A DNA stretch of 54,187 nt from a bacterium (GTDB lineage: Bacteria > Patescibacteriota > Minisyncoccia > UBA6257 > 2-01-FULL-56-20). Shown here piece by piece: positions 1 to 7,795 of this stretch (its first letter is position 1; the number at the start of each line of letters is the position of its first letter). The stretch lies in the NCBI GenBank assembly GCA_027310625.1, contig DAIDAM010000009.1, positions 1 to 54,187 on the forward strand, read 5' to 3'. The notes beneath the pieces were generated by a model, which did not search any database, was not told where the DNA came from, and worked only from the letters and a program-made list of their open reading frames with translations. Made by a program: the position numbers and the translations under genes.

Positions 1-2
1 AA

Positions 3-134
3 ACTGTCAACGATCTCAACAAAGCGCTTGCCGAATACATCCCTTACTACAACGGGAAACGGCTGCATTCTGGCCTAGGTTTGCGTACGCCGCTACAGGC
101 ATTATCAACAAAGTGTTTCCAAGGTATTGATTAG
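3..134 (+). mobile_element. 3' end of an integrase-core (DDE, IS3/IS481-like) transposase, truncated by the window edge
   Basis: Frame from base 3 reads TVNDLNKALAEYIPYYNGKRLHSGLGLRTPLQALSTKCFQGID*. The YN..R.H..L...TP motif is typical of the rve-type integrase C-terminus. Confidence 0.75.
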
Positions 135-150
135 AAGACGAGTTCAGTTG

Positions 151-222
151 TGGACCGTAGCGGATTTGAACCGCTGACCCCTTCATTGCAAATGAAGTGC
201 TCTGCCACTGAGCTAACGGCCC
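151..222 (-). tRNA. tRNA-Ala(TGC)
   Basis: Cloverleaf GGGCCGT...ACGGTCC-A with G3:U70. Anticodon arm CTTCA-TTTGCAA-TGAAG. No encoded CCA. Confidence 0.95.
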
Positions 223-978
223 TTATTTGCCCATTCTCCTTTCGGTTCTTGCGTAATTCTGTATCGCTTTTTGAAATTCCGCAACAGAGAAATCGGGATA
301 AAGCGTGTCCGTGAAATAAAGTTGGCTGTCGGCGACGTCCCACATCATCATCCCGCTCGACAAGTGCGGCTCGCCGCCCGTCCTGATGACCAAATCCACC
401 GGAGGCAAATTTTTCGTCCAGAGATTTTGCTTTATCAAATCGCCGTCAATCTCGAGTTTCGAGTTTCGAGATTTTCCGCCCGAGGCGCCACGCCCGCCGT
501 CGGGCAGGGATCCGCCTTTGGCGGATAGTTTAACAATATTTCGGATTGCGCTTGTCATCTCGTCCATTCCGCTGTAAGCAAGAAGAACAGTAAGTTCGCA
601 CTTGTTGTATTTTCTTGTTTTGTCTATTGCTGACTGGATCGCTTTTTTCGCGGACGGCGAAAACATTTCTTTCCATCTGCCGAAAACGTTTATTCTGACT
701 CCGTTTTCATGCACGTACTTGCTTTTGGCCAATTTCTTGAAATAAATCTCGAATACTTTCAGAAGAAATTTAACTTCCTGCGGGGAACGCTTGGCGATGT
801 TGTCAACCGACGAGCCCCAGAATGTGAAATTTTCTATGCCCAAATCCAGCGCGGCTTTGAGTATTTTTTCCGTATTTTTCGCTCCCTCACGGTGCCCCAA
901 AAACGACGGCAGGCCTTTCTTTTTAGCCCACCGCCTGTTGCCGTCGGGAATCAAAACGATATGCCTTGGTAAATTCAT
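223..978 (-). CDS. uppS: Undecaprenyl/polyprenyl diphosphate synthase (cis-prenyltransferase) with an in-frame repeat-derived insertion
   Basis: Motifs HIVLIPDGNRRWA, GHREG, DLVIRTGGE, YFTDTLYPDF and ERRMGK. Confidence 0.95.
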   Translation of the reverse strand: MNLPRHIVLIPDGNRRWAKKKGLPSFLGHREGAKNTEKILKAALDLGIENFTFWGSSVDNIAKRSPQEVKFLLKVFEIYFKKLAKSKYVHENGVRINVFGRWKEMFSPSAKKAIQSAIDKTRKYNKCELTVLLAYSGMDEMTSAIRNIVKLSAKGGSLPDGGRGASGGKSRNSKLEIDGDLIKQNLWTKNLPPVDLVIRTGGEPHLSSGMMMWDVADSQLYFTDTLYPDFSVAEFQKAIQNYARTERRMGK

Positions 979-1099
979 CCCGTTAGAGACAGGTTGTCTT
1001 TAGACAACCGCAACGCGCGGCCACTTGGAAAAAATCTTCATTTTTTTCTGCTTGTAATTATTTCCGCGAAATTGTTGGAGTGTTTGTCTCTAACGGGAT
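977..1099. mobile_element. MITE-like inverted-repeat element (TIR ATCCCGTTAGAGACA) at the uppS start codon
   Basis: 15-bp TIRs at 977-991 and 1085-1099. ATGAA is repeated on both sides on the gene strand. Homologous copies at 25693 and 33257. Confidence 0.75.
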
Positions 1100-1104
1100 T
1101 CATC

Positions 1105-1419
1105 TCAATATCTCGTCAAAAGGAAAACGGCGACTGAGAGCGCGAACAAAACCAGCCAGCCGAGCGTCGAAAACAAAAGAACGAAAGATTTTTTTTTAAG
1201 GCCGCCGAGGTAAAGGTGAATCGGTTTTCCCAAAACCAACATTCCGGTTATCAGCGCTGAGATTACAAAAAGAAGCAAAACGAAAAGCGGCATCAGAAAA
1301 GTCGGCTGCTTGCCGAAAATATTCTGGCTGTTGAATCCCAGCCAGGCGACGGCGCCGACGTAAATGAAAACTCCGGCTGCGCTCAAAAAACTTTTCAAAA
1401 TGTATTCGGATTTTTTCAT
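1105..1419 (-). CDS. Small hypothetical membrane protein (3 TM)
   Basis: 104-aa ORF with three hydrophobic segments and an ATG start. Confidence 0.75.
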   Translation of the reverse strand: MKKSEYILKSFLSAAGVFIYVGAVAWLGFNSQNIFGKQPTFLMPLFVLLLFVISALITGMLVLGKPIHLYLGGLKKKSFVLLFSTLGWLVLFALSVAVFLLTRY

Positions 1420-1445
1420 TTGATTTGTGTCGCAGATGCAGCGTG

Positions 1446-1516
1446 TGGACCTACGGGGAATCGAACCCCGACCTTATCCATGCCATGGATACGTTCTACC
1501 GTTATACTATAGGCCC
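1446..1516 (-). tRNA. tRNA-Ala(GGC)
   Basis: GGGCCTA...TAGGTCC-A with G3:U70. Anticodon arm TATCC-ATGGCAT-GGATA. T-loop GTTCGATT. Confidence 0.93.
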
Positions 1517-1588
1517 GGTTTTCCTTGCAGTAGAATGCTTAATGAGATATCATTTTAATCTGCCGTCAAAGTTTTTTCAAATAATCAC

Positions 1589-1660
1589 GCCGCGGTAGCT
1601 CAGTGGTAGAGCGCAGCCCTGAAGAGGCTGGCGTCGGGGGTTCAATTCCCTCCCGCGGCA
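1589..1660 (+). tRNA. tRNA-Phe(GAA)
   Basis: GCCGCGG...CCGCGGC-A. Anticodon arm CAGCC-CTGAAGA-GGCTG. Confidence 0.96.
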
Positions 1661-1667
1661 CATAAAT

Positions 1668-1853
1668 GCCCCCGTAGTTCAACGGATAGAACAGATCCGT
1701 CCTACCTGCCCGACTTGCCTGACGTCCCCGTAGCTCAATGGATAGAGCTATTCCGTCCTAAGGAAGAGATGCGGGTTCAACTCCTGCCGGGGACACAAAT
1801 GCAAGTCAGGCGGGCGGGAGGATAAAATGGGAGTTCGATTCTTCCCGAGGGCA
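1668..1853 (+). tRNA. Interrupted tRNA-Arg(CCT): halves 1668-1704 and 1819-1853, separated by a 114-nt insertion at 37/38 (intron-containing gene or pseudogene)
   Basis: Joining the halves gives a full cloverleaf: GCCCCCG TA GTTC AACGGATA GAAC A GATCC GTCCTA^A GGATA AAAT GGGAG TTCGATT CTTCC CGAGGGC A. There is one C:A mismatch in the acceptor stem. Confidence 0.8.
1724..1795 (+). tRNA. Intact tRNA-Arg(CCT) nested inside the insertion of the outer tRNA-Arg
   Basis: Perfect acceptor stem GTCCCCG...CGGGGAC-A, D-stem GCTC/GAGC, A20, anticodon loop GTCCTAA, T-arm GCGGG-TTCAACT-CCTGC. Confidence 0.93.
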
Positions 1854-1876
1854 CACGTCCGCCGATGGCGAGACAC

Positions 1877-1912
1877 GGTGGGTTGGCAGAGTGGCCGAAA
1901 GCGCCCGACTCG
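1877..1912 (+). pseudogene. 5' half of a tRNA-Ser(CGA), broken in the anticodon
   Basis: GGTGGGTTGGCAGAGTGGCCGAAAGCGCCCGACTCG. The first 18 nt are identical to the intact tRNA-Ser at 2235. It is followed by a palindromic insert. Confidence 0.8.
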
Positions 1913-1948
1913 CCCGCCGGAGGCGGGTCCGCCTCGGGCGGAAAATGC
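1908..1948 (+). repeat. Direct repeat copy 1 (anticodon + double-hairpin insert + AAAATGC); copy 2 at 2343-2383, partial copy 3 at 3593-3612
   Basis: ACTCGCCCGCCGGAGGCGGGTCCGCCTCGGGCGGAAAATGC versus ACTCGCCCGCCAGAGACGAGTCCGCCCCGGGCGGAAAATGC (4 mismatches). Confidence 0.85.
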
Positions 1949-1954
1949 TAAAAA

Positions 1955-2212
1955 ATGGCTATAGTTTATATTTTATTCAGCCCGAGATTAAAGAAGTTTT
2001 ATGTAGGTTCCTCGCGTGAAAATACTCCGGATGTTCGTCTTGCGCATCACAACAATGGTTCGGTGAAATCTACGAAATCAGGTCGGCCATGGACAATAAT
2101 TGAAACAGAAAGGTTTGATAGTTATACTGGTGCCAGAAAAAGAGAGTTATTTTAAAAATCAGGGGTCGGAAGAAAACAAATCAGGAACAGATTCGGATAT
2201 TTAAAAAACTAA
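1955..2212 (+). pseudogene. Small GIY-YIG nuclease (UPF0213/YhbQ-like) with an in-frame TAA at 2153-2155
   Basis: VYILFS...FYVGSS...RLAHHN...KSTKSGRPW...ARKRELF*KSGVGRKQIRNRFGYLKN*. The expected C-terminal 'E..LKSG.GR' motif continues in the same frame after the stop, consistent with TTA>TAA. Confidence 0.85.
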
Positions 2213-2234
2213 TTGCTATAAGAGAATGCAGAGC

Positions 2235-2321
2235 GGTGGGTTGGCAGAGTGGTCTAACGCGCCGCACTCGAAATGCGGTTTCCCGGAAACGGGATCGGAG
2301 GTTCGAATCCTCCACCCACCG
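2235..2321 (+). tRNA. tRNA-Ser(CGA), intact, flanked by a 19-bp perfect inverted repeat
   Basis: GGTGGGT...ACCCACC-G. Anticodon arm CCGCA-CTCGAAA-TGCGG, long variable arm TCCCG-GAAA-CGGGA. Flanks CTATAAGAGAATGCAGAGC (2216-2234) and GCTCTGCATTCTCTTATAG (2321-2339). Confidence 0.96.
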
Positions 2322-2340
2322 CTCTGCATTCTCTTATAGG

Positions 2341-2532
2341 GCACTCGCCCGCCAGAGACGAGTCCGCCCCGGGCGGAAAATGCGGTTTCCCGGAAACGGG
2401 ATCGGAGGTTCGAACGTGAAAGGGGTCGGGAAAACGGAAGTTTTCCCGATGCGGAAGCAGCTCGTCCGCCCTGGGCGGACAGCGTTGAAACCGCTGGGTT
2501 TCAATCAAGTGAGATTCCTCCACCCACCGCCA
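2341..2532 (+). pseudogene. 3' part of a tRNA-Ser(CGA) with an anticodon insert (2348-2377) and a ~100-nt T-loop insert (2415-2515), ending in CCA
   Basis: GCACTCG^AAATGCGGTTTCCCGGAAACGGGATCGGAGGTTCGAA^TCCTCCACCCACCGCCA is identical to the intact copy once the inserts are removed. Confidence 0.85.
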
Positions 2533-2610
2533 GATGGGATTTTTCAAGCGAAGGAGCAAAAGAAATTTTTTCATTCTGATTTTTTCCAAGAAGCGGCTCA
2601 ACGCCGCTCT

Positions 2611-2639
2611 TTGACTTTTTGTAGGAATAATGTTAAATT
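2611..2639 (+). promoter_or_regulatory. Putative sigma70 promoter of the 2703 gene
   Basis: TTGACT-17 nt-TAAATT, with a strong SD (AGGAG) before the ATG at 2703. Confidence 0.4.
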
Positions 2640-2702
2640 GGCGTTCCGTGGCTTCGGAAGTACCTCGGAAGTACCATTGAAATCAGAGGAAAGGAGATAG
2701 TT

Positions 2703-3308
2703 ATGGGCGAAATGGCTGGCGCGTTCCTTGCGATTATGATCATGATCAGTGTCATTTTTCGGATTGAAGCGATGCTGAGAATGGGAGAGGAGTTGAACGC
2801 GGAATGGAAGAGGCGTTGGGATTCACTCACCGAAGGTAAACGGCGCGAAGAAGCCGGGGCCGACTTCGAGGGCTCCAAAACCATGAGTGCCGCTGGGCTG
2901 AATGCCGCGAACCTTGTGGGTATCATCGGCGTATCGTTTGTGGTCTTCGTTGTGGGAGACCTCACAGCGACATCTGATGTCCTGGCGCCGGAAGTGGAGA
3001 CCGCTTTTCGGTGGATTCGTGTGATCTTCGCGGCTTTGGTTCTATTCCTTGGAATCATGCCGTGGCTCGCGATCTACTACAATGACACGGCTCGTCGGGC
3101 AAAGCATTACGGCGTTTTCAACATGGGACGCCGTGGACGCTTTCTCGACCTCGGGTTCGCTGCGGTGGCGTTGAGCAGCTTGTTACTCGCGATCCCGGCT
3201 CTCCGCGAGTGGTTTCTGCTCATTCCGTACTTCGCTCTCGCCGGTGTCTCGCTGTACATTTTCAATGCGTGGCTGTTCTTCAATAGACCGCCGCGAGAAG
3301 CGACGTGA
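2703..3308 (+). CDS. Hypothetical multi-pass membrane protein (cargo gene)
   Basis: 201-aa ORF with about 5 hydrophobic segments, preceded by an SD. Confidence 0.75.
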   Translation: MGEMAGAFLAIMIMISVIFRIEAMLRMGEELNAEWKRRWDSLTEGKRREEAGADFEGSKTMSAAGLNAANLVGIIGVSFVVFVVGDLTATSDVLAPEVETAFRWIRVIFAALVLFLGIMPWLAIYYNDTARRAKHYGVFNMGRRGRFLDLGFAAVALSSLLLAIPALREWFLLIPYFALAGVSLYIFNAWLFFNRPPREAT

Positions 3309-3632
3309 ACGAACATGGGTTTGCCAGTTGTCCCGAACAACTGGCACTTTCTTTTTCTGAATTCAAAGAGCGAGAATTTGCCGCCAAAGACAAATAATTT
3401 TTTCATCAATTTCAAATTGAAAAATTGTCTGAATTGAGGTATGCTTAACTTAATAAAAACTTGAAATTGTTAATCTTCATTCGAAAATTCATTTTGCCCG
3501 TCCGCCCCATCCGAGTCCCGCGAAGCGGGACGAGGACAGAATTCCGTTCGAGCTATTTTTAAAATACACCGCGTAGAACTTTAACACAGCATCGCACTCG
3601 CCCGCCGGAGGCATATCCACTCTGAACAGACG

Positions 3633-3691
3633 AGCGTTGAAACCACTGGGTTTCAATCAAGTGAGATTCCTCCACCCACCGCCAGATGGGA
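3633..3691 (+). repeat. 59-bp direct repeat of 2481-2539 (end of T-loop insert + tRNA-Ser 3' end + CCA); att-like
   Basis: AGCGTTGAAACC(G/A)CTGGGTTTCAATCAAGTGAGATTCCTCCACCCACCGCCAGATGGGA, one mismatch between copies. Confidence 0.9.
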
Positions 3692-3820
3692 AATGGCTTG
3701 CCCGCTACGCGGGCTCGCCGGTCGGTTTTTGCCAAAAATTCAAGCCATTTTGAATTCAGGCGAAATCAAATAACGGCAGAAATCCTTAAAATCTTCATCA
3801 TTTCCATTTGAGTATTTGCT

Positions 3821-4681
3821 ATGAACAGCGACCAGCAAAAAGTAGTGAAATACTACACACGCCTCGAAACAAAATGGGGTTTCGATCATATCCTCTGGGG
3901 TTCAAAACATTTCGGTTTTTATCCGACCGGAAAACCGGATATACCAGAGAAAGAAGCACAAATTTTGCTTCAAGATTTAGTTGCAAAAAATTTAGATCTC
4001 AAAGGAGATCAAATCATTTTAGATGCCGGTTGCGGGCAAGGCGTGGTGTCCGCCTACCTTGCGAAAAAATACGGCCCGAAAATTTTTGGCATAACGATTG
4101 TCCCATTTGAGGTTAAACGGGCGCAGGAGCTGGCCGAAAACGCAAGCGTTCAGGACAAAACCAATTACCAGCTAATGGATTATTCAGCAACCACTTTTGC
4201 GGATAACTATTTTGATGCGATTTATACCACCGAAACACTTTCTCACTCACCCGACATCCGAAAAACACTGAAGGAATTTTTTAGGATTTTGAAGCCCGGC
4301 GGCAAGATTGCCTTCTTTGAATACACTCTTGCGCCCGATGAAAAATTTTCGCCGTGGGAGAAGAAGATGCTTGACGTTGTAATAGAAGGTTCGGCAATGA
4401 TGGGCTTGAAAGATTTCCGGCATGATCAATTTACAGGAGTTATAAGAAGCATCGGGTTTGAAAATGTAAAAGAGCAGAATATAACCGAAAATATCCGCCC
4501 GTCATTTTATCGGCTGCACAAACTATCAATTTGGCCGTACAAGCTCGTAAAGTTTTTCGGGTTACAAAAATTTTTCATCAACACTACCGCTGGCTACGAA
4601 TACTATAAAATGGCCAAGAAAGGATTGTTACGATATTGCATCTTTACAGGAAACAAAACAAAAGAATTTGCCGCCAGCTGA
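3821..4681 (+). CDS. Class I SAM-dependent methyltransferase (sterol/tocopherol C-methyltransferase-like)
   Basis: Motifs HFGFY, ILDAGCGQG (motif I), FDAIYTTETLSHSPD and RILKPGG. Confidence 0.88.
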   Translation: MNSDQQKVVKYYTRLETKWGFDHILWGSKHFGFYPTGKPDIPEKEAQILLQDLVAKNLDLKGDQIILDAGCGQGVVSAYLAKKYGPKIFGITIVPFEVKRAQELAENASVQDKTNYQLMDYSATTFADNYFDAIYTTETLSHSPDIRKTLKEFFRILKPGGKIAFFEYTLAPDEKFSPWEKKMLDVVIEGSAMMGLKDFRHDQFTGVIRSIGFENVKEQNITENIRPSFYRLHKLSIWPYKLVKFFGLQKFFINTTAGYEYYKMAKKGLLRYCIFTGNKTKEFAAS

Positions 4682-4776
4682 AGCATCGGCGCAGGCGGTG
4701 CCGGCGGTTCTGGTAAAAACGTTTTCAATTTCAAACAGACGCCGCTAAATCATTCCCCTCCGTGTAATAACCGATT

Positions 4777-5364
4777 TTATTTTAGACTGCTGTCCAACCA
4801 GGCGTCGGCTTCAACGGATTTTTTCGAAACGGGGCTTTGGAAAAAAATTCCGAGACGAAATTTTCTTGAAAGCGCGGAGATAAGTTCAAAACTTCCGAAA
4901 AGAATTGCGGTATAAGCAATGTCGCCGAGAAGCATGTTCCTGAAGAACGGGAGCGCGAGCGTGTACGATTCCATCAGGCCGGCGAAAGAACGTTCATACA
5001 TTGCCCCGAATTGCCACACCGCCCAGTTTGTGAGAAGAAAGAAAAACACCGAAGACGACGCGGCGCCGAGAAGAATCGTCAGCGGATTTTTGTATTTCTT
5101 AATCAAAACGCCAATCAAAGCCGCGACGGCGAATCCGGTATAAACCGAGAGCATAATCCGCCAGTCGTAAAAACCGAGAAATAAATCTGAGATAAGCATC
5201 GTCGCGGCGACTATCAAAAGAGAATAACGAATTCCCAAATAGACCGACGAAAAAAGCGCGATTGCCGTAATCGGCGTCATGTTCCAGGAGTGCGGGATAA
5301 ACCTTCCCAAAACGCCGGCGGCAACGAGAAGAAGCGAGAGAAAGATTAAGAATTTTTTTGACAT
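4777..5364 (-). CDS. DUF6580-like membrane transporter (ECF S-component-like, putative cobalamin uptake)
   Basis: RFIPHSWNMTPITAIALF, ISDLFLGFY, FFLLTNWAVW and ALPFFRNMLLGD motifs; multi-TM; third gene downstream of the cobalamin riboswitch. Confidence 0.75.
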   Translation of the reverse strand: MSKKFLIFLSLLLVAAGVLGRFIPHSWNMTPITAIALFSSVYLGIRYSLLIVAATMLISDLFLGFYDWRIMLSVYTGFAVAALIGVLIKKYKNPLTILLGAASSSVFFFLLTNWAVWQFGAMYERSFAGLMESYTLALPFFRNMLLGDIAYTAILFGSFELISALSRKFRLGIFFQSPVSKKSVEADAWLDSSLK

Positions 5365-5473
5365 TTATTTAATGCTCCTCATTTTATTTTATTCCGACGA
5401 ACGAGGATGCAAAGTGAAAGTTTTTCATTTTGTCCGAGCGCTGTCTGAACAAGATAAAAAATGTTGACATCTT

Positions 5474-7795
5474 TTATCTTACCAAACCGAAGACCGAAAA
5501 CAAGCCGGAGAAGAATGAACTTACGGCGCCGGCGACAAATCCGAGAATTTTTCCTCCCAAAGAAGAAACATTCGCGAGCGCCGAGGTATTTTTCCCTTTT
5601 TTAGGTCCAAGGGCACCGCTCGCGGCGAGCGTGGAGGAATTCGATTCTTCGGCAAGTTTGAGGGCGGGCGTTTTAGTTTTTTCGGCGTTTTTCTTCGCGA
5701 TTACCTTCGCTTTTGAAGAACTCGCTGTTGTTGTCGAAAAAGACGGCGAAGAAATTTCGGAAATCGGCGAAGAAGAAGCAGCTGACGTTTTCGCCGACGA
5801 CGATTCATTTTGCGCGGAAATTTCCGACAATGAGGAACTCGCCGTACTCGTCGAGTTCGCGGCGGAGTAGCCGCCGGTTCCGCCGCCCGCAACAGAATTT
5901 GCCGACGAAGGTTTGGGAAATTGCTTCAAGACGGCGTACCAGGTTTTCCCGAGCACGGCCGGAATCGCGTATGACGTCGCCCAGATACGCGAATTCGTAT
6001 CGGTTGAAGTGCTTTCAATTCCCCCATCATCTGCCTGAAGGGAAAAAAGATAATCATTGGGATTTTTGTTGTTTTGAAGCCACGCTGTCGGCGAACCGTT
6101 GATTGATAAAATCGCCTGAATCGCCCAGCTGGTGGAATAACTGGAACCGAAGCCCCCGTCGGAGTTTTGATGCGAAGAAAGGTAGGACTGCGCTTTCGTC
6201 AGCGCCTCTGAAACGCCGTTCGAACCGACAAAAACCGACAGCGCCTGAATCGCGGCGGCGGTCAAGTCGACACTTCCCTCCCATGAACCGTCGCTTTTTT
6301 GTTTTCCGAGAATGAAGGAAATGATTTTTTGAATCATCTCGTCGTTTTTGGAATAGCCGGCGTTAATAAGCGGAAAGAGTGAAAAAATGTCGTCGTTCAC
6401 GAGCGATACGTCGCCGATTTGCGCGCCGTCGAATTTGTCCACTATCTTTTGGATGAAATCGGTTGAGGCGCCGTTGTAAGGATTAATTCCCAAGGCCATC
6501 AGCGCCATTGCGTGCCTTTCGTAGTCCGTCGCGGAAGAAAAACCGCTTACGTCAGCCGATTTGAGATAGGAAGATATTTTTTCTGTCGGTCCTCCGGACG
6601 CCGCGAGCGCGATTGCCGCCCAATCCGTGTAAAGAAGCTGACCGAAAGAGCCGTCGGCGAGTTGCTTAGAAAGAAGGAATTGAACCGCTTTATTGACGTC
6701 AATTGTCTGGTGGATTATCCATAATGCTCCCCCGCCGCCTCCGGTTTCGGATGAAGACGTTCCGGACGAGGCCGGAGAAACATCAACAGTCACATTCGGG
6801 AAATAACCGCTGTCTTTTATGCCGACGCTGTAGGTGCCGGTGGCGTTGAGCGCAAGTTGCGCCTGACCGCCTGAATCCGTGGTTGACGTCGCAAACTCAG
6901 TGGCGTTAAAGAAAGCGTCGAATTGAACCGCGCCGACGGTTGTTCCCGTTGCCGGAACGTAACTTCCCGACGAAGCGTCGTATTTCTGGGCGGTAACGGT
7001 GAATGATTCGCCCGTTGAAACGGAACTCTTGTCGGTTAAAACGTTCCAGGAAGAACCAAAGAAAACATAAACGACGTCGCCGTTTTGAAGATTGTAATAA
7101 TCCATGCCGAACGAAGGGAAAACGCCGTTGACCGCATAAGTCCAGTTGTAGCAGTCGGGGCTCGCCGACGCCGAGGGAACATAAACGCAGTTGACCAAAA
7201 ACGAACTGAAGGAGCTGAAATACTGGAGGTCGGTGATGTCAAATTCCGAATGCGAAACGTCAAGCGAAGACAGAATCGCAAGAACGCTTCCTTCGGCAAC
7301 GGGATAAGTAGTCGTTGAACCGGTCGGTGAAATTTCAACCGTTGACGTGCTTGAATCGGGCAGATTGGCGGTGTAAGGACCGAGGAGAACCGAGCCGTCG
7401 CGGATGTAAATTGTCGCGGTTGACGTCGGCGTTGACGATACTTCGCTCACCGTCACATCGGCGGTGCTCGAAACCGCACTTGTGCTGTCGTCTGCGAAAA
7501 TGCTTACCGTTGAGGTTCCCGCAGAAACCGCCGTCAAAAGGCCGTTCGAATCTAGCGTTGCGACAGAAGTGTCGTCGGATGACCAGGTAATTGTCGTCGT
7601 GGCGGAGTAAGCCGCGCCGTTTTCATCAAAAAGCGAAGCGGTGAACTGCGTTGTGGAACCGACCGTGAGTGAAACCGATGACGGGTTAATTGAAACCGAC
7701 GTCAATGTTTGCGCAAAGGCAACCGCCGCGGTCAGCGCGAATGCGGCCACTGAAAATACTACTGTTTGCTTTTTGATTTTGTTCATGATTTTCAT
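5474..7795 (-). CDS. Secreted protein: signal peptide, Ig-like (Big_2) domain, DUF4430-like domain, alpha/alpha-barrel (prenyltransferase/squalene-cyclase-like repeats), Ser-rich tail
   Basis: Ig-like SVSLTVGSTTQFTA...ITWSSDDTSVATLDSNGLLTAVSAGT; DUF4430-like WTYAVNG...YNLQNGDVV; repeated FLLSKQLADGSFG / FILGKQKSDGSWE / YLSSHQNSDGGFG / YLFSLQADDGGIE. Confidence 0.85.
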   Translation of the reverse strand: MKIMNKIKKQTVVFSVAAFALTAAVAFAQTLTSVSINPSSVSLTVGSTTQFTASLFDENGAAYSATTTITWSSDDTSVATLDSNGLLTAVSAGTSTVSIFADDSTSAVSSTADVTVSEVSSTPTSTATIYIRDGSVLLGPYTANLPDSSTSTVEISPTGSTTTYPVAEGSVLAILSSLDVSHSEFDITDLQYFSSFSSFLVNCVYVPSASASPDCYNWTYAVNGVFPSFGMDYYNLQNGDVVYVFFGSSWNVLTDKSSVSTGESFTVTAQKYDASSGSYVPATGTTVGAVQFDAFFNATEFATSTTDSGGQAQLALNATGTYSVGIKDSGYFPNVTVDVSPASSGTSSSETGGGGGALWIIHQTIDVNKAVQFLLSKQLADGSFGQLLYTDWAAIALAASGGPTEKISSYLKSADVSGFSSATDYERHAMALMALGINPYNGASTDFIQKIVDKFDGAQIGDVSLVNDDIFSLFPLINAGYSKNDEMIQKIISFILGKQKSDGSWEGSVDLTAAAIQALSVFVGSNGVSEALTKAQSYLSSHQNSDGGFGSSYSTSWAIQAILSINGSPTAWLQNNKNPNDYLFSLQADDGGIESTSTDTNSRIWATSYAIPAVLGKTWYAVLKQFPKPSSANSVAGGGTGGYSAANSTSTASSSLSEISAQNESSSAKTSAASSSPISEISSPSFSTTTASSSKAKVIAKKNAEKTKTPALKLAEESNSSTLAASGALGPKKGKNTSALANVSSLGGKILGFVAGAVSSFFSGLFSVFGLVR

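What the first reader, a model, noticed from the sequence alone, without database searches (positions are those of the whole stretch)
1877..2532. GIY-YIG nuclease plus hairpin-clamped replacement tRNA-Ser inserted in the anticodon of tRNA-Ser(CGA)
Seen, in order: tRNA-Ser 5' half ending at CTCG; 41-bp repeat; GIY-YIG gene; intact tRNA-Ser whose acceptor stem is extended by a perfect 19-bp inverted repeat; second copy of the 41-bp repeat; tRNA-Ser 3' half ending in CCA. This repeats the logic of the adjacent Arg locus (intact isoacceptor inside a hairpin inside a broken copy), here with a candidate enzyme. Established: GIY-YIG domains act as homing endonucleases and structure-specific nucleases. 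Inference: a minimal tRNA-targeting mobile unit (nuclease + rescue tRNA) bounded by direct repeats. Caveats: the nuclease has a nonsense codon, and the outer 5' half (CCCGA) pairs poorly with the outer 3' half (TGCGG), so the outer gene is probably a dead chimera.
Basis: partly seen in the sequence, partly recalled or inferred. Interest (0 to 1): 0.87.

Follow-up and report, generated by a model that had tools for sequence, protein, structure and literature searches.

The report
Nuclease-plus-tRNA cassette nested in tRNA
A tiny nuclease gene and a full spare serine tRNA sit inside the wreck of an older copy of that tRNA gene, and the same layout recurs beside many tRNA genes in related bacteria, which points to an undescribed family of selfish elements that live in tRNA genes.

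Summary
In order, the window carries an old tRNA-Ser(CGA) 5' part, a 41-nt repeat, an 85-codon GIY-YIG gene with one TAA nonsense codon, an intact tRNA-Ser(CGA) in a perfect 26-bp stem, the repeat again, and the old 3' part ending in CCA.

The repeat is a 30-nt GC-rich double hairpin lying in the anticodon loop. The nuclease-tRNA block starts 6 nt beyond that hairpin. The old 3' part carries a separate 101-nt T-loop element, and a third fragment follows 1.1 kb downstream.

The layout recurs. A same-strand tRNA follows the small GIY-YIG gene in 24 of 31, 50 of 66 and 20 of 39 loci. A copy of that tRNA's 5' part lies upstream in 16 of 24, 33 of 50 and 13 of 20 (the sets overlap). Nuclease clades track tRNA identity.

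The protein is a minimal SLX1/UPF0213-type nuclease, not an I-TevI-type one. The stem "clamp" is a trait of this genome's tRNA-Ser genes, not of the cassette.

Best reading: a decaying member of an undescribed selfish nuclease-plus-tRNA cassette family. Mobility and enzymology are inferred, not shown.

The parts
1877..1912 (+). Old (outer) tRNA-Ser(CGA) 5' part, tRNA positions 1-35, ending CTCG in the anticodon
   Evidence: 86% identical over 37 nt to the start of the intact gene (D5). Its D-loop is of the type seen in the plain tRNA-Ser(CGA) of G001 and in the outer pieces of G003 and L074.
1913..1942 (+). GC-rich double hairpin (two 15-nt hairpins), copy 1, inserted between anticodon positions 35 and 36
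   Evidence: Read. It belongs to a genome-wide family: 43 TCCGCC-type hairpins and 11 tandem pairs in this genome, against 0 pairs in a shuffle. A hairpin of this kind lies within 95 nt upstream of the start in 70 of 94 GIY loci, against 92 of 2070 background windows.
1943..1948 (+). Six more nt of the old tRNA (positions 36-41, AAATGC), then the junction with the nuclease block
   Evidence: Read. The same hairpin-plus-6-nt geometry is seen in L011, L074, L021, L040, L016, L019 and L020.
1955..2212 (+). Small GIY-YIG (SLX1/UPF0213-type) nuclease gene of 85 codons, broken by TAA at 2153-2155. The 66-aa product keeps the GIY, YIG, Arg, His and Glu positions but loses the C-terminal helices.
   Evidence: Pfam PF01541, E 2.1e-10. 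Orthologues L011 (62% identity) and L074 (70%) have Leu codons TTG and TTA at that position. Invariant residues; model pLDDT 96.4.
2100..2128 (+). Promoter-like site inside the nuclease ORF, upstream of the intact tRNA
   Evidence: TTGAAA, 17-nt spacer, TATACT; 10 of 12 consensus positions. This is a consensus match only.
2216..2234 (+). Left arm of the stem that extends the acceptor stem
   Evidence: 26-nt arms, 100% complementary (I1).
2235..2321 (+). Intact (inner) tRNA-Ser(CGA), the only tRNA-Ser(CGA) found in the genome
   Evidence: ARAGORN; Rfam RF00005, 54.8 bits. Its first 36 nt are identical to those of the plain tRNA-Ser(CGA) genes of G010 and G022.
2321..2339 (+). Right arm of the stem
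   Evidence: I1.
2341..2383 (+). Second copy of the repeat: GCACTCG, double hairpin copy 2 (2348-2377), then AAATGC
   Evidence: D1: 90% identity. All four differences lie in the first hairpin.
2378..2414 (+). Old tRNA-Ser 3' part, first stretch: anticodon loop 3' side, AC stem 3' strand, variable arm, T stem 5' strand and TTCGAA
   Evidence: 37 nt, 100% identical to 2271-2307 of the intact gene.
2415..2515 (+). 101-nt T-loop element inserted at tRNA position 59/60 of the old gene. It belongs to a separate, widespread element family.
   Evidence: Found in 57 of 201 genomes of the order. There are 38 invariant alignment columns, most of them in one conserved block of about 40 nt, over 19 copies; hairpin covariation; no Rfam match.
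2516..2532 (+). Old tRNA-Ser 3' end: T60, T stem 3' strand, acceptor 3' strand, G73 and CCA
   Evidence: Read, D4.
3594..3684 (+). Third, internally deleted copy of the old 3' part. It holds GCACTCG, the start of the hairpin, the end of the T-loop element and the tRNA 3' end.
   Evidence: D1 third copy (63%) and D2 (59 nt, 98% identical to 2481-2539).

Best explanation
The locus is a decaying member of a family of small selfish cassettes that live in tRNA genes.

A cassette consists of one or two GC-rich hairpins, an ~85-aa SLX1/UPF0213-type GIY-YIG nuclease gene, and directly behind it a complete tRNA of the same anticodon as the gene it interrupts.

What the sequences show:
- The order of parts recurs at many tRNA identities and in many genomes.
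- The hairpin sits in a loop of the old tRNA (D, anticodon or T loop), and the cassette junction lies about 6 nt further on.
- The old 5' piece remains upstream, and sometimes the old 3' piece remains downstream.
- Target sequence is duplicated around the cassette: 41-43 nt here and about 40 nt at the Val locus.
- Each nuclease clade keeps to one tRNA identity and one insertion site.

What I infer:
- The nuclease is structure-selective like SLX1. It nicks or cuts tRNA-gene DNA at hairpin-forming sequence.
- The break is repaired by copying from, or recombining with, a cassette-bearing copy, using the tRNA sequence itself as the homology.
- Because a whole tRNA comes with the cassette, or is regenerated by it, the cell keeps the tRNA and the insertion is tolerated.
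- The old tRNA promoter, and here perhaps an internal one, drives both the ORF and the tRNA.

In this window the nuclease has been knocked out by a TTA-to-TAA change. The old 3' half was later hit by a T-loop element and by a further 1.1-kb insertion. The outer gene is dead, and the inner tRNA is the working tRNA-Ser(CGA).
For: Anatomy.

Second case in the same genome: C3 has the old tRNA-Val(GAC) 5' part with a hairpin in place of its anticodon arm, then GIY-YIG, then an intact tRNA-Val(GAC), then the old 3' part. The acceptor strands of the two outer pieces pair.

Orthologous loci with an intact gene: G018/L011 and L074.

Census:
- A same-strand tRNA lies within -40 to +150 nt of the ORF stop in 24 of 31 loci, 50 of 66 and 20 of 39 (consecutive ranks 31-70). 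The sets overlap. My estimate of the chance expectation is about 0.6%, from 46 tRNAs in 766 kb.
- A 5' copy lies upstream in 16 of 24, 33 of 50 and 13 of 20, mostly 100% identical and starting at tRNA position 1.
- A hairpin lies upstream of the start in 70 of 94 loci, against 92 of 2070 background windows.

Signs of activity and turnover:
- A tandem array with a 328-nt unit in L020.
- Copies with internal stop codons in other genomes.
- Patchy, multi-copy distribution: 130 of 201 genomes of the order.

Clade structure: tRNA identity needs 15 changes on the nuclease tree, against 26-30 in 200 label shuffles. The Cys clade has support 100 and the Glu clade 98.

Protein: invariant GIY, YIG, Arg, His and Glu positions. 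The profile hits UPF0213 (1zg2, E 1e-15) and SLX1 (7cq2, E 2e-10) far better than I-TevI (E 7e-4). The model has pLDDT 96.4 and SLX1 is its top fold match.

Presence or absence of the 267-nt gene block between the same junction motifs: G010 has AAAATGC joined directly to the leader of the tRNA, and G003 has the old 5' half plus hairpin plus inner tRNA with no ORF.

Link to hairpins in general: the other two small GIY-YIG genes of this genome lie between 15-nt inverted repeats.
Against: - No cleavage, movement or transcript has been observed.
- No allele of this organism without the cassette was seen in the reads.
- The protein has no DNA-binding domain, so it is unclear how one tRNA gene would be chosen.
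- The clade-to-tRNA correlation and the conserved sites could also come from old insertions inherited vertically and lost patchily. Dunin-Horkawicz et al. 2006 (PMC1564403, passages read) judged bacterial SLX1-like proteins to be mostly vertically inherited.
- tRNA-in-tRNA nests exist without any nuclease gene: Arg(CCT) at 1668-1857 and Lys(TTT) on C14. The hairpins are spread over the whole genome. General recombination at hairpins might therefore suffice.
- 14 of 39, 16 of 66 and 7 of 31 loci have no tRNA behind the gene.
- No relative was found in 50,697 phage records or 72,556 plasmid records with one query, so no vector is known.
- The locus sets overlap, were drawn with Ser/Glu-type queries, and kin are not independent.
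Confidence: 0.6

Rival explanations
1. The locus is a recombination scar with a passenger gene. The tRNA fragments come from integrase-type elements or from RecA or slippage events at the abundant palindromic hairpins. The small GIY-YIG gene merely rides behind tRNA promoters and plays no part in its own spread.
For: - tRNA genes are classic integration sites. An archaeal case with a tRNA 5' fragment, a 1.8-kb recombinase element and a full tRNA is in print (PMC3293823, abstract read).
- The window has a 1.1-kb insert bounded by a 59-nt repeat of the tRNA 3' end.
- Nests occur without a nuclease at Arg and Lys.
- 9 of 46 tRNAs of this genome have partial copies nearby.
- Hairpins of this type occur in 157 of 201 genomes.
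- The genome holds one tyrosine recombinase and one Y1-transposase-like gene elsewhere.
Against: - No recombinase gene lies in or beside the cassettes examined.
- The unit is only 435 nt here and 328 nt in L020.
- A passenger would not be expected to show clade-by-clade fidelity to one tRNA identity and one insertion site.
- A passenger would not be expected to keep its catalytic residues invariant across 28 diverse copies.
- The fixed hairpin-6-nt-junction geometry points to a defined cut or join.
Confidence: 0.17
2. The nuclease is a host-serving factor. It is a housekeeping or locus-maintenance enzyme, for example processing the co-transcribed pre-tRNA or resolving secondary structures at tRNA genes, and is encoded next to its substrate. 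The duplications are by-products.
For: - The family is very large: 33,235 representative clusters at E<=0.001.
- Catalytic residues are conserved.
- The ORF often ends inside the tRNA (stop offsets of -9 to -36 nt), which implies co-transcription.
- A TrmH fusion led Dunin-Horkawicz et al. 2006 to suggest a role in RNA metabolism (PMC1564403, passage read).
Against: - 71 of 201 genomes of the order have none at E<=1e-5, while others have up to 8 copies, each at a different tRNA.
- Nonsense copies exist, such as this one.
- Tandem arrays occur.
- Every insertion destroys a tRNA gene copy.
Confidence: 0.1
3. The pair is a toxin-antidote system acting on RNA. The nuclease cuts the cell's ordinary tRNA of that identity, and the linked tRNA is a resistant version, so cells become addicted to the cassette.
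For: - The nuclease is always paired with a tRNA of one identity.
- In the neighbouring Arg nest, which has no nuclease gene, the inner copy is a different allele from the outer one: window inner Arg is close to the G018 type and outer Arg is close to the G004 type. The Ser inner and outer copies differ at 5 of 36 positions.
Against: - All solved relatives matched are DNA enzymes.
- In most loci the upstream piece is 100% identical to the inner tRNA, so there is no resistant variant.
- There is no second, sensitive gene copy in this genome.
Confidence: 0.06
4. The insert is an intron. The outer tRNA-Ser is still functional, and everything between its halves is spliced out of the RNA.
For: The hairpin sits in the anticodon loop, where tRNA introns lie. 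Relatives seem to carry inserts of ~200-230 nt in tRNA-Phe.
Against: - There is no Rfam intron match in 1-6000 at E<=1.
- No tRNA-splicing endonuclease domain was found in this 96.9%-complete genome.
- The outer AC-stem halves do not pair.
- The outer 3' half carries a further 101-nt insert.
- Most related loci have no 3' partner for the 5' piece (36 of 50).
Confidence: 0.03

Closest known systems
Free-standing GIY-YIG homing endonuclease genes, in particular T4 SegB in the phage tRNA gene cluster (PMC2330249; abstract seen in the search listing)
   Same: A GIY-YIG nuclease gene lies among tRNA genes and is thought to spread itself and its flanks by cutting DNA that lacks it. Presence/absence variation occurs between relatives.
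   Different: Seg and I-TevI enzymes have a DNA-binding domain and a defined site. This protein is the bare 85-aa domain and matches SLX1/UPF0213 far better than I-TevI (E 1e-15 and 2e-10 against 7e-4). Here the gene sits inside a cellular tRNA gene together with a full replacement copy. No relative was found in the phage collection.
Integrative elements that target tRNA genes and carry a tRNA part to restore the gene (archaeal case: Sugahara et al. 2012, PMC3293823, abstract read; the general rule is recalled)
   Same: The tRNA gene is the target, the gene is regenerated by element-borne sequence, a displaced tRNA fragment is left at one end, and the flanking direct repeats are made of tRNA sequence.
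   Different: There is no integrase or recombinase in the unit, and the unit is 0.3-0.45 kb. The displaced piece is usually the 5' part. A hairpin marks the junction. In the window a whole tRNA lies inside, not just a part.
SLX1 and bacterial UPF0213 stand-alone GIY-YIG proteins (Dunin-Horkawicz et al. 2006, PMC1564403, passages read; PDB 1zg2, 1ywl, 7cq2, 4xlg)
   Same: Same fold and catalytic residues. It is the minimal domain, as described for the prokaryotic members.
   Different: SLX1 proper has a RING domain and the partner SLX4. The bacterial members have no assigned function, and the passages I read do not mention linkage to tRNA genes.
Non-intron insertion sequences in rRNA genes of CPR bacteria, some encoding GIY-YIG proteins (Tsurumaki et al. 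2024, PMC11270868, passages read)
   Same: Same group of organisms. GIY-YIG ORFs sit in inserts that are neither group I nor group II introns, placed at the top or base of stem-loops of a structured-RNA gene.
   Different: Those are in rRNA genes and carry no replacement gene copy. That paper has no occurrence of the word tRNA in its main text.
Free-standing GIY-YIG genes in fungal mitochondria that bring a duplicated end of the host gene (recalled; only titles seen)
   Same: The logic of a nuclease gene plus a replacement piece of the gene it splits.
   Different: The targets are protein-coding genes in organelles, and the enzymes are of the I-TevI-like type. I did not examine any of these here.

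Membership tests
GIY-YIG nuclease superfamily (Pfam PF01541) | Profile match above the curated cut-off | tested here: met
   41.2 bits against a cut-off of 22.6, E 2.1e-10, reading the TAA as X. Genome search gives 40.4 bits.
GIY-YIG nuclease superfamily (Pfam PF01541) | Catalytic residues: Tyr of GIY, Tyr-x-Gly of YIG, Arg, His and Glu | tested here: met
   Y5 (at least 90% of sequences) and Y16, G18, R28, H32 and E64 (all invariant) in 28 relatives. All are present in the window's frame before the TAA. The invariant K68 and the last helices lie after the TAA.
SLX1 / UPF0213 branch | Closer in sequence and fold to SLX1 and UPF0213 than to the UvrC/I-TevI branch | tested here: met
   1zg2 E 1.1e-15, 1ywl 8.4e-15, SLX1 7cq2 2.3e-10, I-TevI 7.3e-4. 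The Foldseek top hits are Slx1 chains and UPF0213.
SLX1 proper (eukaryotic) | C-terminal RING/PHD zinc domain and the SLX4 partner | tested here: not met
   The protein is 85 aa with a single domain.
Site-specific homing endonuclease (I-TevI / Seg type) | Separate DNA-binding domain that gives site specificity | tested here: not met
   There is no extra domain. NCBIfam group I intron endonuclease TIGR01453 matches only the N-terminal ~30 residues of two relatives, at 15.9-24.8 bits against a cut-off of 56.
Site-specific homing endonuclease (I-TevI / Seg type) | Cuts the allele that lacks it, and the gene is copied into the break | not testable with these tools
   Indirect evidence only: presence or absence of the gene block between the same junction motifs, a tandem array and site fidelity per clade.
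tRNA-targeting integrative element (recombinase type) | Integrase or recombinase gene within the element | tested here: not met
   No other ORF with a family match lies in 1877-2532. The genome's only PF00589 match is on C14.
tRNA-targeting integrative element (recombinase type) | Direct repeats of tRNA sequence at both ends, and a functional tRNA regenerated | tested here: met
   41-nt repeat at 90% identity; intact tRNA inside.
Group I intron in a bacterial tRNA anticodon loop | Match to the group I ribozyme model between the tRNA halves | tested here: not met
   The Rfam E-value search of 1-6000 lists only tRNA and chance-level hits.
Archaeal-type (bulge-helix-bulge) tRNA intron | Splicing endonuclease encoded by the genome | tested here: not met
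   PF01974 is not found in the 96.9%-complete genome, while the 4 archaeal controls are positive. I did not model the bulge-helix-bulge fold itself.

The most novel reading that the evidence does not exclude
The stand-alone bacterial SLX1/UPF0213 nucleases number tens of thousands of protein clusters and have no assigned function. On this reading they are largely the engines of a class of minimal selfish elements made of a hairpin, a nuclease and a gene part or whole tRNA. These elements colonise the hairpin loops of structured-RNA genes and other palindromes. They choose targets by DNA shape plus homology rather than by a DNA-binding domain. They drive continual replacement of tRNA genes in small-genome bacteria and beyond.
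Probability: 0.35. Interest if true: 0.88.

Novelty: new variant of a known kind. Interest (0 to 1): 0.78.

Why it matters
If the reading is right, four things follow.

1. It gives a first biological context to a very large family of function-unknown mini-nucleases: 33,235 representative clusters at E<=0.001.
2. It describes a selfish element that solves the problem of landing in an essential single-copy gene by bringing or regenerating that gene.
3. It explains why tRNA genes in these reduced genomes are littered with fragments (9 of 46 in this genome), and why alleles of one isoacceptor differ so much between species of one genus.
4. It offers a testable case of target choice by DNA structure.

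It also warns annotators that tRNA halves next to small GIY-YIG ORFs are relics, not split genes.

Seven full-text searches found no paper that describes this arrangement. Subscription journals and supplementary files were not searchable.

Tried and rejected
**Intron readings.** The Rfam E-value search of 1-6000 found no intron or ribozyme family. No tRNA-splicing endonuclease domain was found in the genome.

**TAA as a sense codon.** Rejected. The two closest orthologues have the Leu codons TTG and TTA at that place, and the same ORF ends at a TAA.

**The stem as terminal inverted repeats of a mobile tRNA.** Weakened. Stems of 8 bp or more occur at 3 of the 4 tRNA-Ser genes of this genome and at none of the other 42 tRNAs. 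They occur at only 9 of 70 nuclease-linked tRNAs.

**T-loop element as a TnpB guide RNA (scaffold plus flank-derived guide).** No TnpB domain was found in the genome. One Y1-transposase-like ORF (C10:105364-105600) and one reverse transcriptase (C3) exist, but I did not follow them.

**Vectors.** tblastn of the G018 protein found nothing in the phage or plasmid collections. One viral-contig locus (L184) had no tRNA.

**NCBIfam.** No family reached its cut-off.

**Expression.** No RNA holder was listed.

**Laid contigs of X1-X4.** No joint of this organism skips the cassette. The low-depth joints listed have short sides and extra letters, and look like other organisms' tRNAs.

**Hairpin count against nuclease presence across genomes.** I compared only the listed rows by eye. 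Of the 20 nuclease-negative genomes listed, 13 have at most 1 hairpin. Of the first 20 positives, 3 do. No statistic was computed, and kin are not independent.

Supplementary files of papers were not opened.
Full report
**What is there**

The window is contig C12 of a 766-kb, 21-contig genome with 46 tRNA genes. Relatives' records are labelled as Candidate Phyla Radiation groups.

Between 1877 and 2532 the + strand reads as follows:
- tRNA-Ser(CGA) positions 1-35 (1877-1912, ending CTCG);
- a 30-nt pair of GC-rich hairpins (1913-1942);
- six more tRNA letters, AAATGC (1943-1948), and a 6-nt linker;
- an 85-codon GIY-YIG ORF (1955-2212), stopped early by TAA at 2153-2155;
- a 19-nt arm (2216-2234), an intact tRNA-Ser(CGA) (2235-2321), and the complementary 19-nt arm (2321-2339);
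- GCACTCG, the hairpin pair again and AAATGC (2341-2383);
- the rest of the old tRNA up to TTCGAA of the T loop (to 2414), which is 100% identical over 37 nt to the inner gene;
- a 101-nt insert (2415-2515);
- the old T-stem and acceptor 3' strands with CCA (2516-2532).

A third, internally deleted copy of the old 3' part lies at 3594-3684. It sits behind a 1.1-kb insert bounded by a 59-nt, 98%-identical repeat, and that insert holds a 201-aa ORF with no Pfam match.

Unitigs of four runs of one sample, possibly the source, cross all junctions without a difference.

**The protein**

Pfam GIY-YIG matches at E 2e-10. A profile of 28 relatives hits the UPF0213 proteins 1zg2 and 1ywl (E 1e-15 and 8e-15) and SLX1 (E 2e-10 to 9e-7). 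It hits I-TevI only at E 7e-4.

The AlphaFold model of the G018 orthologue has pLDDT 96.4. Its best fold matches are Slx1 chains, then UPF0213, then I-TevI. The GIY, YIG, Arg, His and Glu positions are invariant or nearly so.

The closest relatives are L074 (70% identity) and G018/L011 (62%). They have Leu codons where the window has TAA. The window's gene therefore carries a single nonsense change.

**Recurrence in the same genome**

Six GIY-YIG domains are present, four of them small.
- One, on C3, lies between an old tRNA-Val(GAC) 5' part and an intact tRNA-Val(GAC). A single hairpin replaces the anticodon arm of that old part. The old 3' part follows the intact gene, and the acceptor strands of the two outer pieces pair.
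- The other two small genes lie between 15-nt inverted repeats. One of those repeat pairs also occurs in the window at 977-991 and 1085-1099, without an ORF.
- 9 of 46 tRNAs have same-strand partial copies within 700 nt. These include nests without a nuclease at Arg(CCT) (window 1668-1857) and Lys(TTT) (C14).

**Recurrence elsewhere**

The G018 protein finds relatives in 130 of 201 sampled genomes of the order, often several per genome.

| Locus set | Same-strand tRNA at -40 to +150 nt of the ORF stop | 5' copy of that tRNA upstream |
|---|---|---|
| Best 30 loci plus G018 | 24 of 31 | 16 of 24 (one weak) |
| Ranks 31-70, taken without picking | 20 of 39 | 13 of 20 |
| Species-representative genome collection | 50 of 66 | 33 of 50 |

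- In the ranks 31-70 set, one of the 40 regions gave no hit, and about 8 more loci have a tRNA just upstream instead.
- In the genome-collection set, 14 of 50 also have a downstream 3' piece.
- By record label, the genome-collection loci include Pseudomonadota (5 of 5 with a downstream tRNA), Planctomycetota (2 of 3), Spirochaetota (1 of 1) and Bacteroidota (2 of 6), besides CPR groups. These are labels of metagenome bins, and I could not check them.
- The three sets share some loci. The third was found with a Ser/Glu-type pattern.
- My estimate of the chance of such adjacency is about 0.6%, from 46 tRNAs in 766 kb.

**Fine structure**

- A perfect GC-rich 6-bp hairpin lies within 95 nt upstream of the start codon in 70 of 94 loci, against 92 of 2070 background windows, and in 21 of 39 loci.
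- The hairpins sit in a loop of the old tRNA piece: D loop 13/14 in the Ser(GGA/GCT)/Tyr clade, anticodon loop 34-36 in the Cys, Glu and Ser(TGA/CGA) clades, and T loop in some Gln loci. About 6 more tRNA letters follow, then a short linker and ATG.
- Stems differ between loci but stay complementary.
- The ORF often ends inside the tRNA.
- Where the old 3' piece survives, the cassette is flanked by a duplication that contains the hairpin: the window, own Val, L024 and L032 and L131.
- L020 holds two perfect 328-nt units (tRNA 1-35, hairpins, positions 36-42, linker, ORF) before the full tRNA.
- The hairpin family is genome-wide: 43 hairpins and 11 tandem pairs here, against 0 pairs in a shuffle. 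It occurs in 157 of 201 genomes, with reversed-pattern controls of 0-2 per genome.

**Clades**

On a tree of 89 proteins, the identity of the downstream tRNA needs 15 changes, against 26-30 in 200 label shuffles. The Cys clade has support 100 and the Glu clade 98. Ser falls in two clades, and the window lies in the Ser(TGA/CGA) one. The tree has few columns and many unresolved forks.

**This locus in relatives**

- G018 and L074 have the same order of parts with an intact gene.
- G003 (same genus) has the old 5' half, hairpin, AAATGC, 31 nt and the inner tRNA, with no ORF. G001 has a plain tRNA-Ser(CGA).
- G010 has AAAATGC joined directly to a leader like the window's left arm. These are the window's junctions without the 267-nt gene block.
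- The inner tRNA's first 36 nt equal those of the plain genes of G010 and G022. The outer piece differs at 5 of 36 positions and shares its D-loop type with G001 and with the outer pieces of G003 and L074.
- At the Arg nest, the outer copy matches the plain gene of G004 and the inner copy matches that of G018. The inner gene is therefore a different allele that replaced the resident one.

**The stem**

Leader/trailer stems of 8 bp or more occur at 9 of 70 nuclease-linked tRNAs (8 Ser, 1 Lys). In this genome they occur at 3 of 46 tRNAs, all tRNA-Ser (CGA 19 bp, GGA 14, TGA 12). The Ser(GGA) gene on C15 is also nested, with no nuclease. The stem is therefore a tRNA-Ser trait here, not a defining part of the cassette.

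**The T-loop element**

- The 101-nt insert belongs to a family found in 57 of 201 genomes.
- In 28 of 33 instances it follows an intact same-strand tRNA by 9-86 nt. In 24 of those 28, the 15 nt after it match that tRNA's last 15 nt at 12 or more positions. At least 14 tRNA identities are involved.
- Its left flank is a short strand complementary to the T-stem 3' strand, plus TCGAA.
- 38 alignment columns are invariant over 19 copies, most of them in one conserved block of about 40 nt. One hairpin shows compensatory changes at four pairs.
- There is no Rfam match.
- I cannot explain it, and I treat it as a later, separate hit on the dead outer gene.

**How it most likely works**

Shown: the architecture, its recurrence, the hairpin geometry, the duplications, the clade fidelity, the presence or absence of the gene block, and the decay of this copy.

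Inferred:
- An SLX1-like, structure-selective nuclease cuts hairpin-forming tRNA-gene DNA.
- The break is repaired from a cassette-bearing copy, with tRNA sequence as the homology. Alternatively, a small circle made by recombination between the repeats re-enters by homology.
- The complete tRNA keeps the cell viable.
- Recombination between inner and outer parts then deletes either the old 3' piece or the gene. This yields the forms seen: 5' piece, gene and tRNA in one case, and tRNA plus 3' piece in the other.

Rivals are given with their evidence in the Rival explanations section. The strongest is that hairpin-mediated or recombinase-mediated rearrangement makes the nests and the nuclease gene is a passenger.

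**Comparison with print**

- Dunin-Horkawicz et al. 2006 (passages read) describe the stand-alone bacterial SLX1-like proteins as minimal and mostly vertically inherited. They ask whether further GIY-YIG members are molecular parasites. The three occurrences of the word tRNA in that text concern a methyltransferase fusion and two items of the reference list.
- Tsurumaki et al. 2024 (passages read) report GIY-YIG ORFs in non-intron inserts of CPR rRNA genes, at stem-loop tips or bases.
- Sugahara et al. 2012 (abstract read) report an archaeal tRNA 5' fragment, a recombinase element and a full tRNA.
- T4 SegB is known to me here only from the abstract in the search listing.
- Seven searches gave no description of a small GIY-YIG gene nested with a replacement tRNA. 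Supplements and subscription journals were not covered.

**Limits**

- No experiment, no RNA data and no empty allele of this organism are available.
- The locus sets overlap, and kin are not independent.
- Taxon labels of bins are unverified.

Noticed in passing
window 2415-2515; also G000 C10:71027-71140 (-) and C7:13013-13083 (-): A conserved ~100-nt T-loop element. It follows an intact tRNA and its terminator, sits between a short strand complementary to the T-stem 3' strand plus TCGAA and a copy of that tRNA's last ~15-18 nt (sometimes with the trailer too). 38 alignment columns are invariant over 19 copies, most of them in one conserved block of about 40 nt. It occurs in 57 of 201 genomes of the order, next to at least 14 tRNA identities, and has no Rfam match. 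Its nature (RNA gene, DNA site or mobile element) is unexplained.
   Followed up: partly
G000 C18 about 3270-3420 (after tRNA-Arg TCT) and C3 about 121850-121950 (after tRNA-Ile GAT): A second, unrelated core sequence occupies the same kind of place: between a TCGAA-like left flank and a copy of the tRNA 3' end.
   Followed up: no
window 1668-1857: tRNA-Arg(CCT) nest. An intact gene (1724-1796) with imperfect inverted flanks lies at position 37/38 of a second tRNA-Arg(CCT). The outer copy matches the plain gene of same-genus G004 and the inner copy matches that of G018. No nuclease gene is present.
   Followed up: partly
window 2533-3693: A 1.1-kb insert behind the old tRNA-Ser 3' end, bounded by a 59-nt, 98%-identical repeat. 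It holds a 201-aa ORF (2703-3308) with hydrophobic stretches and no Pfam match. Part of 3347-3575 recurs in other genomes and on C10:135845-135966.
   Followed up: no
whole genome G000, e.g. C3:2827-2856, C10:131729-131758, C14:54519-54548: A genome-wide family of 15-nt GC-rich hairpins (TCCGCC, 3-4 nt, GGCGGA and variants), often as 30-nt tandem pairs. This genome has 43 hairpins and 11 pairs. The pattern occurs in 157 of 201 genomes of the order, at 0-64 per genome.
   Followed up: partly
window 977-991 / 1085-1099 and G000 C10:48226-48504: The same perfect 15-nt inverted repeat pair encloses 93 nt without an ORF in the window. On C10 it encloses a small GIY-YIG gene. A third small GIY-YIG gene (C3:33461-33694) is enclosed by another 15-nt inverted repeat.
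   Followed up: partly
G000 C14:54700-55080 and C15:39150-39560: tRNA-Lys(TTT) and tRNA-Ser(GGA) are also nested, with no nuclease gene. Old 5' pieces with hairpins lie upstream, the inner gene has a leader/trailer stem, and old 3' pieces with hairpins in the T loop lie downstream.
   Followed up: partly
L020 (G201:C8) 1090-1814; also G139:C12:12779-13336: Tandem arrays of the unit tRNA 5' part, hairpins, then GIY-YIG ORF, ahead of the full tRNA. The L020 array has two units of 328 nt, nearly identical. For G139:C12 only the two ORF matches, spaced 330 nt apart, were seen.
   Followed up: partly
L005 (G001:C4), reverse strand, about 315-720 of the oriented print: Same-genus relative G001 has a tRNA-Arg 5' fragment, then a ~300-nt insert with a small ORF that looks like a helix-turn-helix protein by eye, then an intact tRNA-Arg(CCT). 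The ORF was not scanned.
   Followed up: no
G009:C18:8188-8479, G028:C16:16626-16935, G017:C72:2914-3192: In three relatives, the two halves of tRNA-Phe(GAA) match about 200-230 nt apart. These may be introns in the anticodon loop.
   Followed up: no
G000 C6:39147-39461 (-) and C3:3021-3924 (+): ARAGORN in intron mode calls a tRNA-His with a 219-nt insert and a tRNA-Val(GAC) with an 808-nt insert. No tRNA-Asn was found in any contig.
   Followed up: no
window 3-131: C-terminal end of an integrase-core (rve) transposase at the contig start (Pfam rve_2 and rve_3, E about 1e-5).
   Followed up: no
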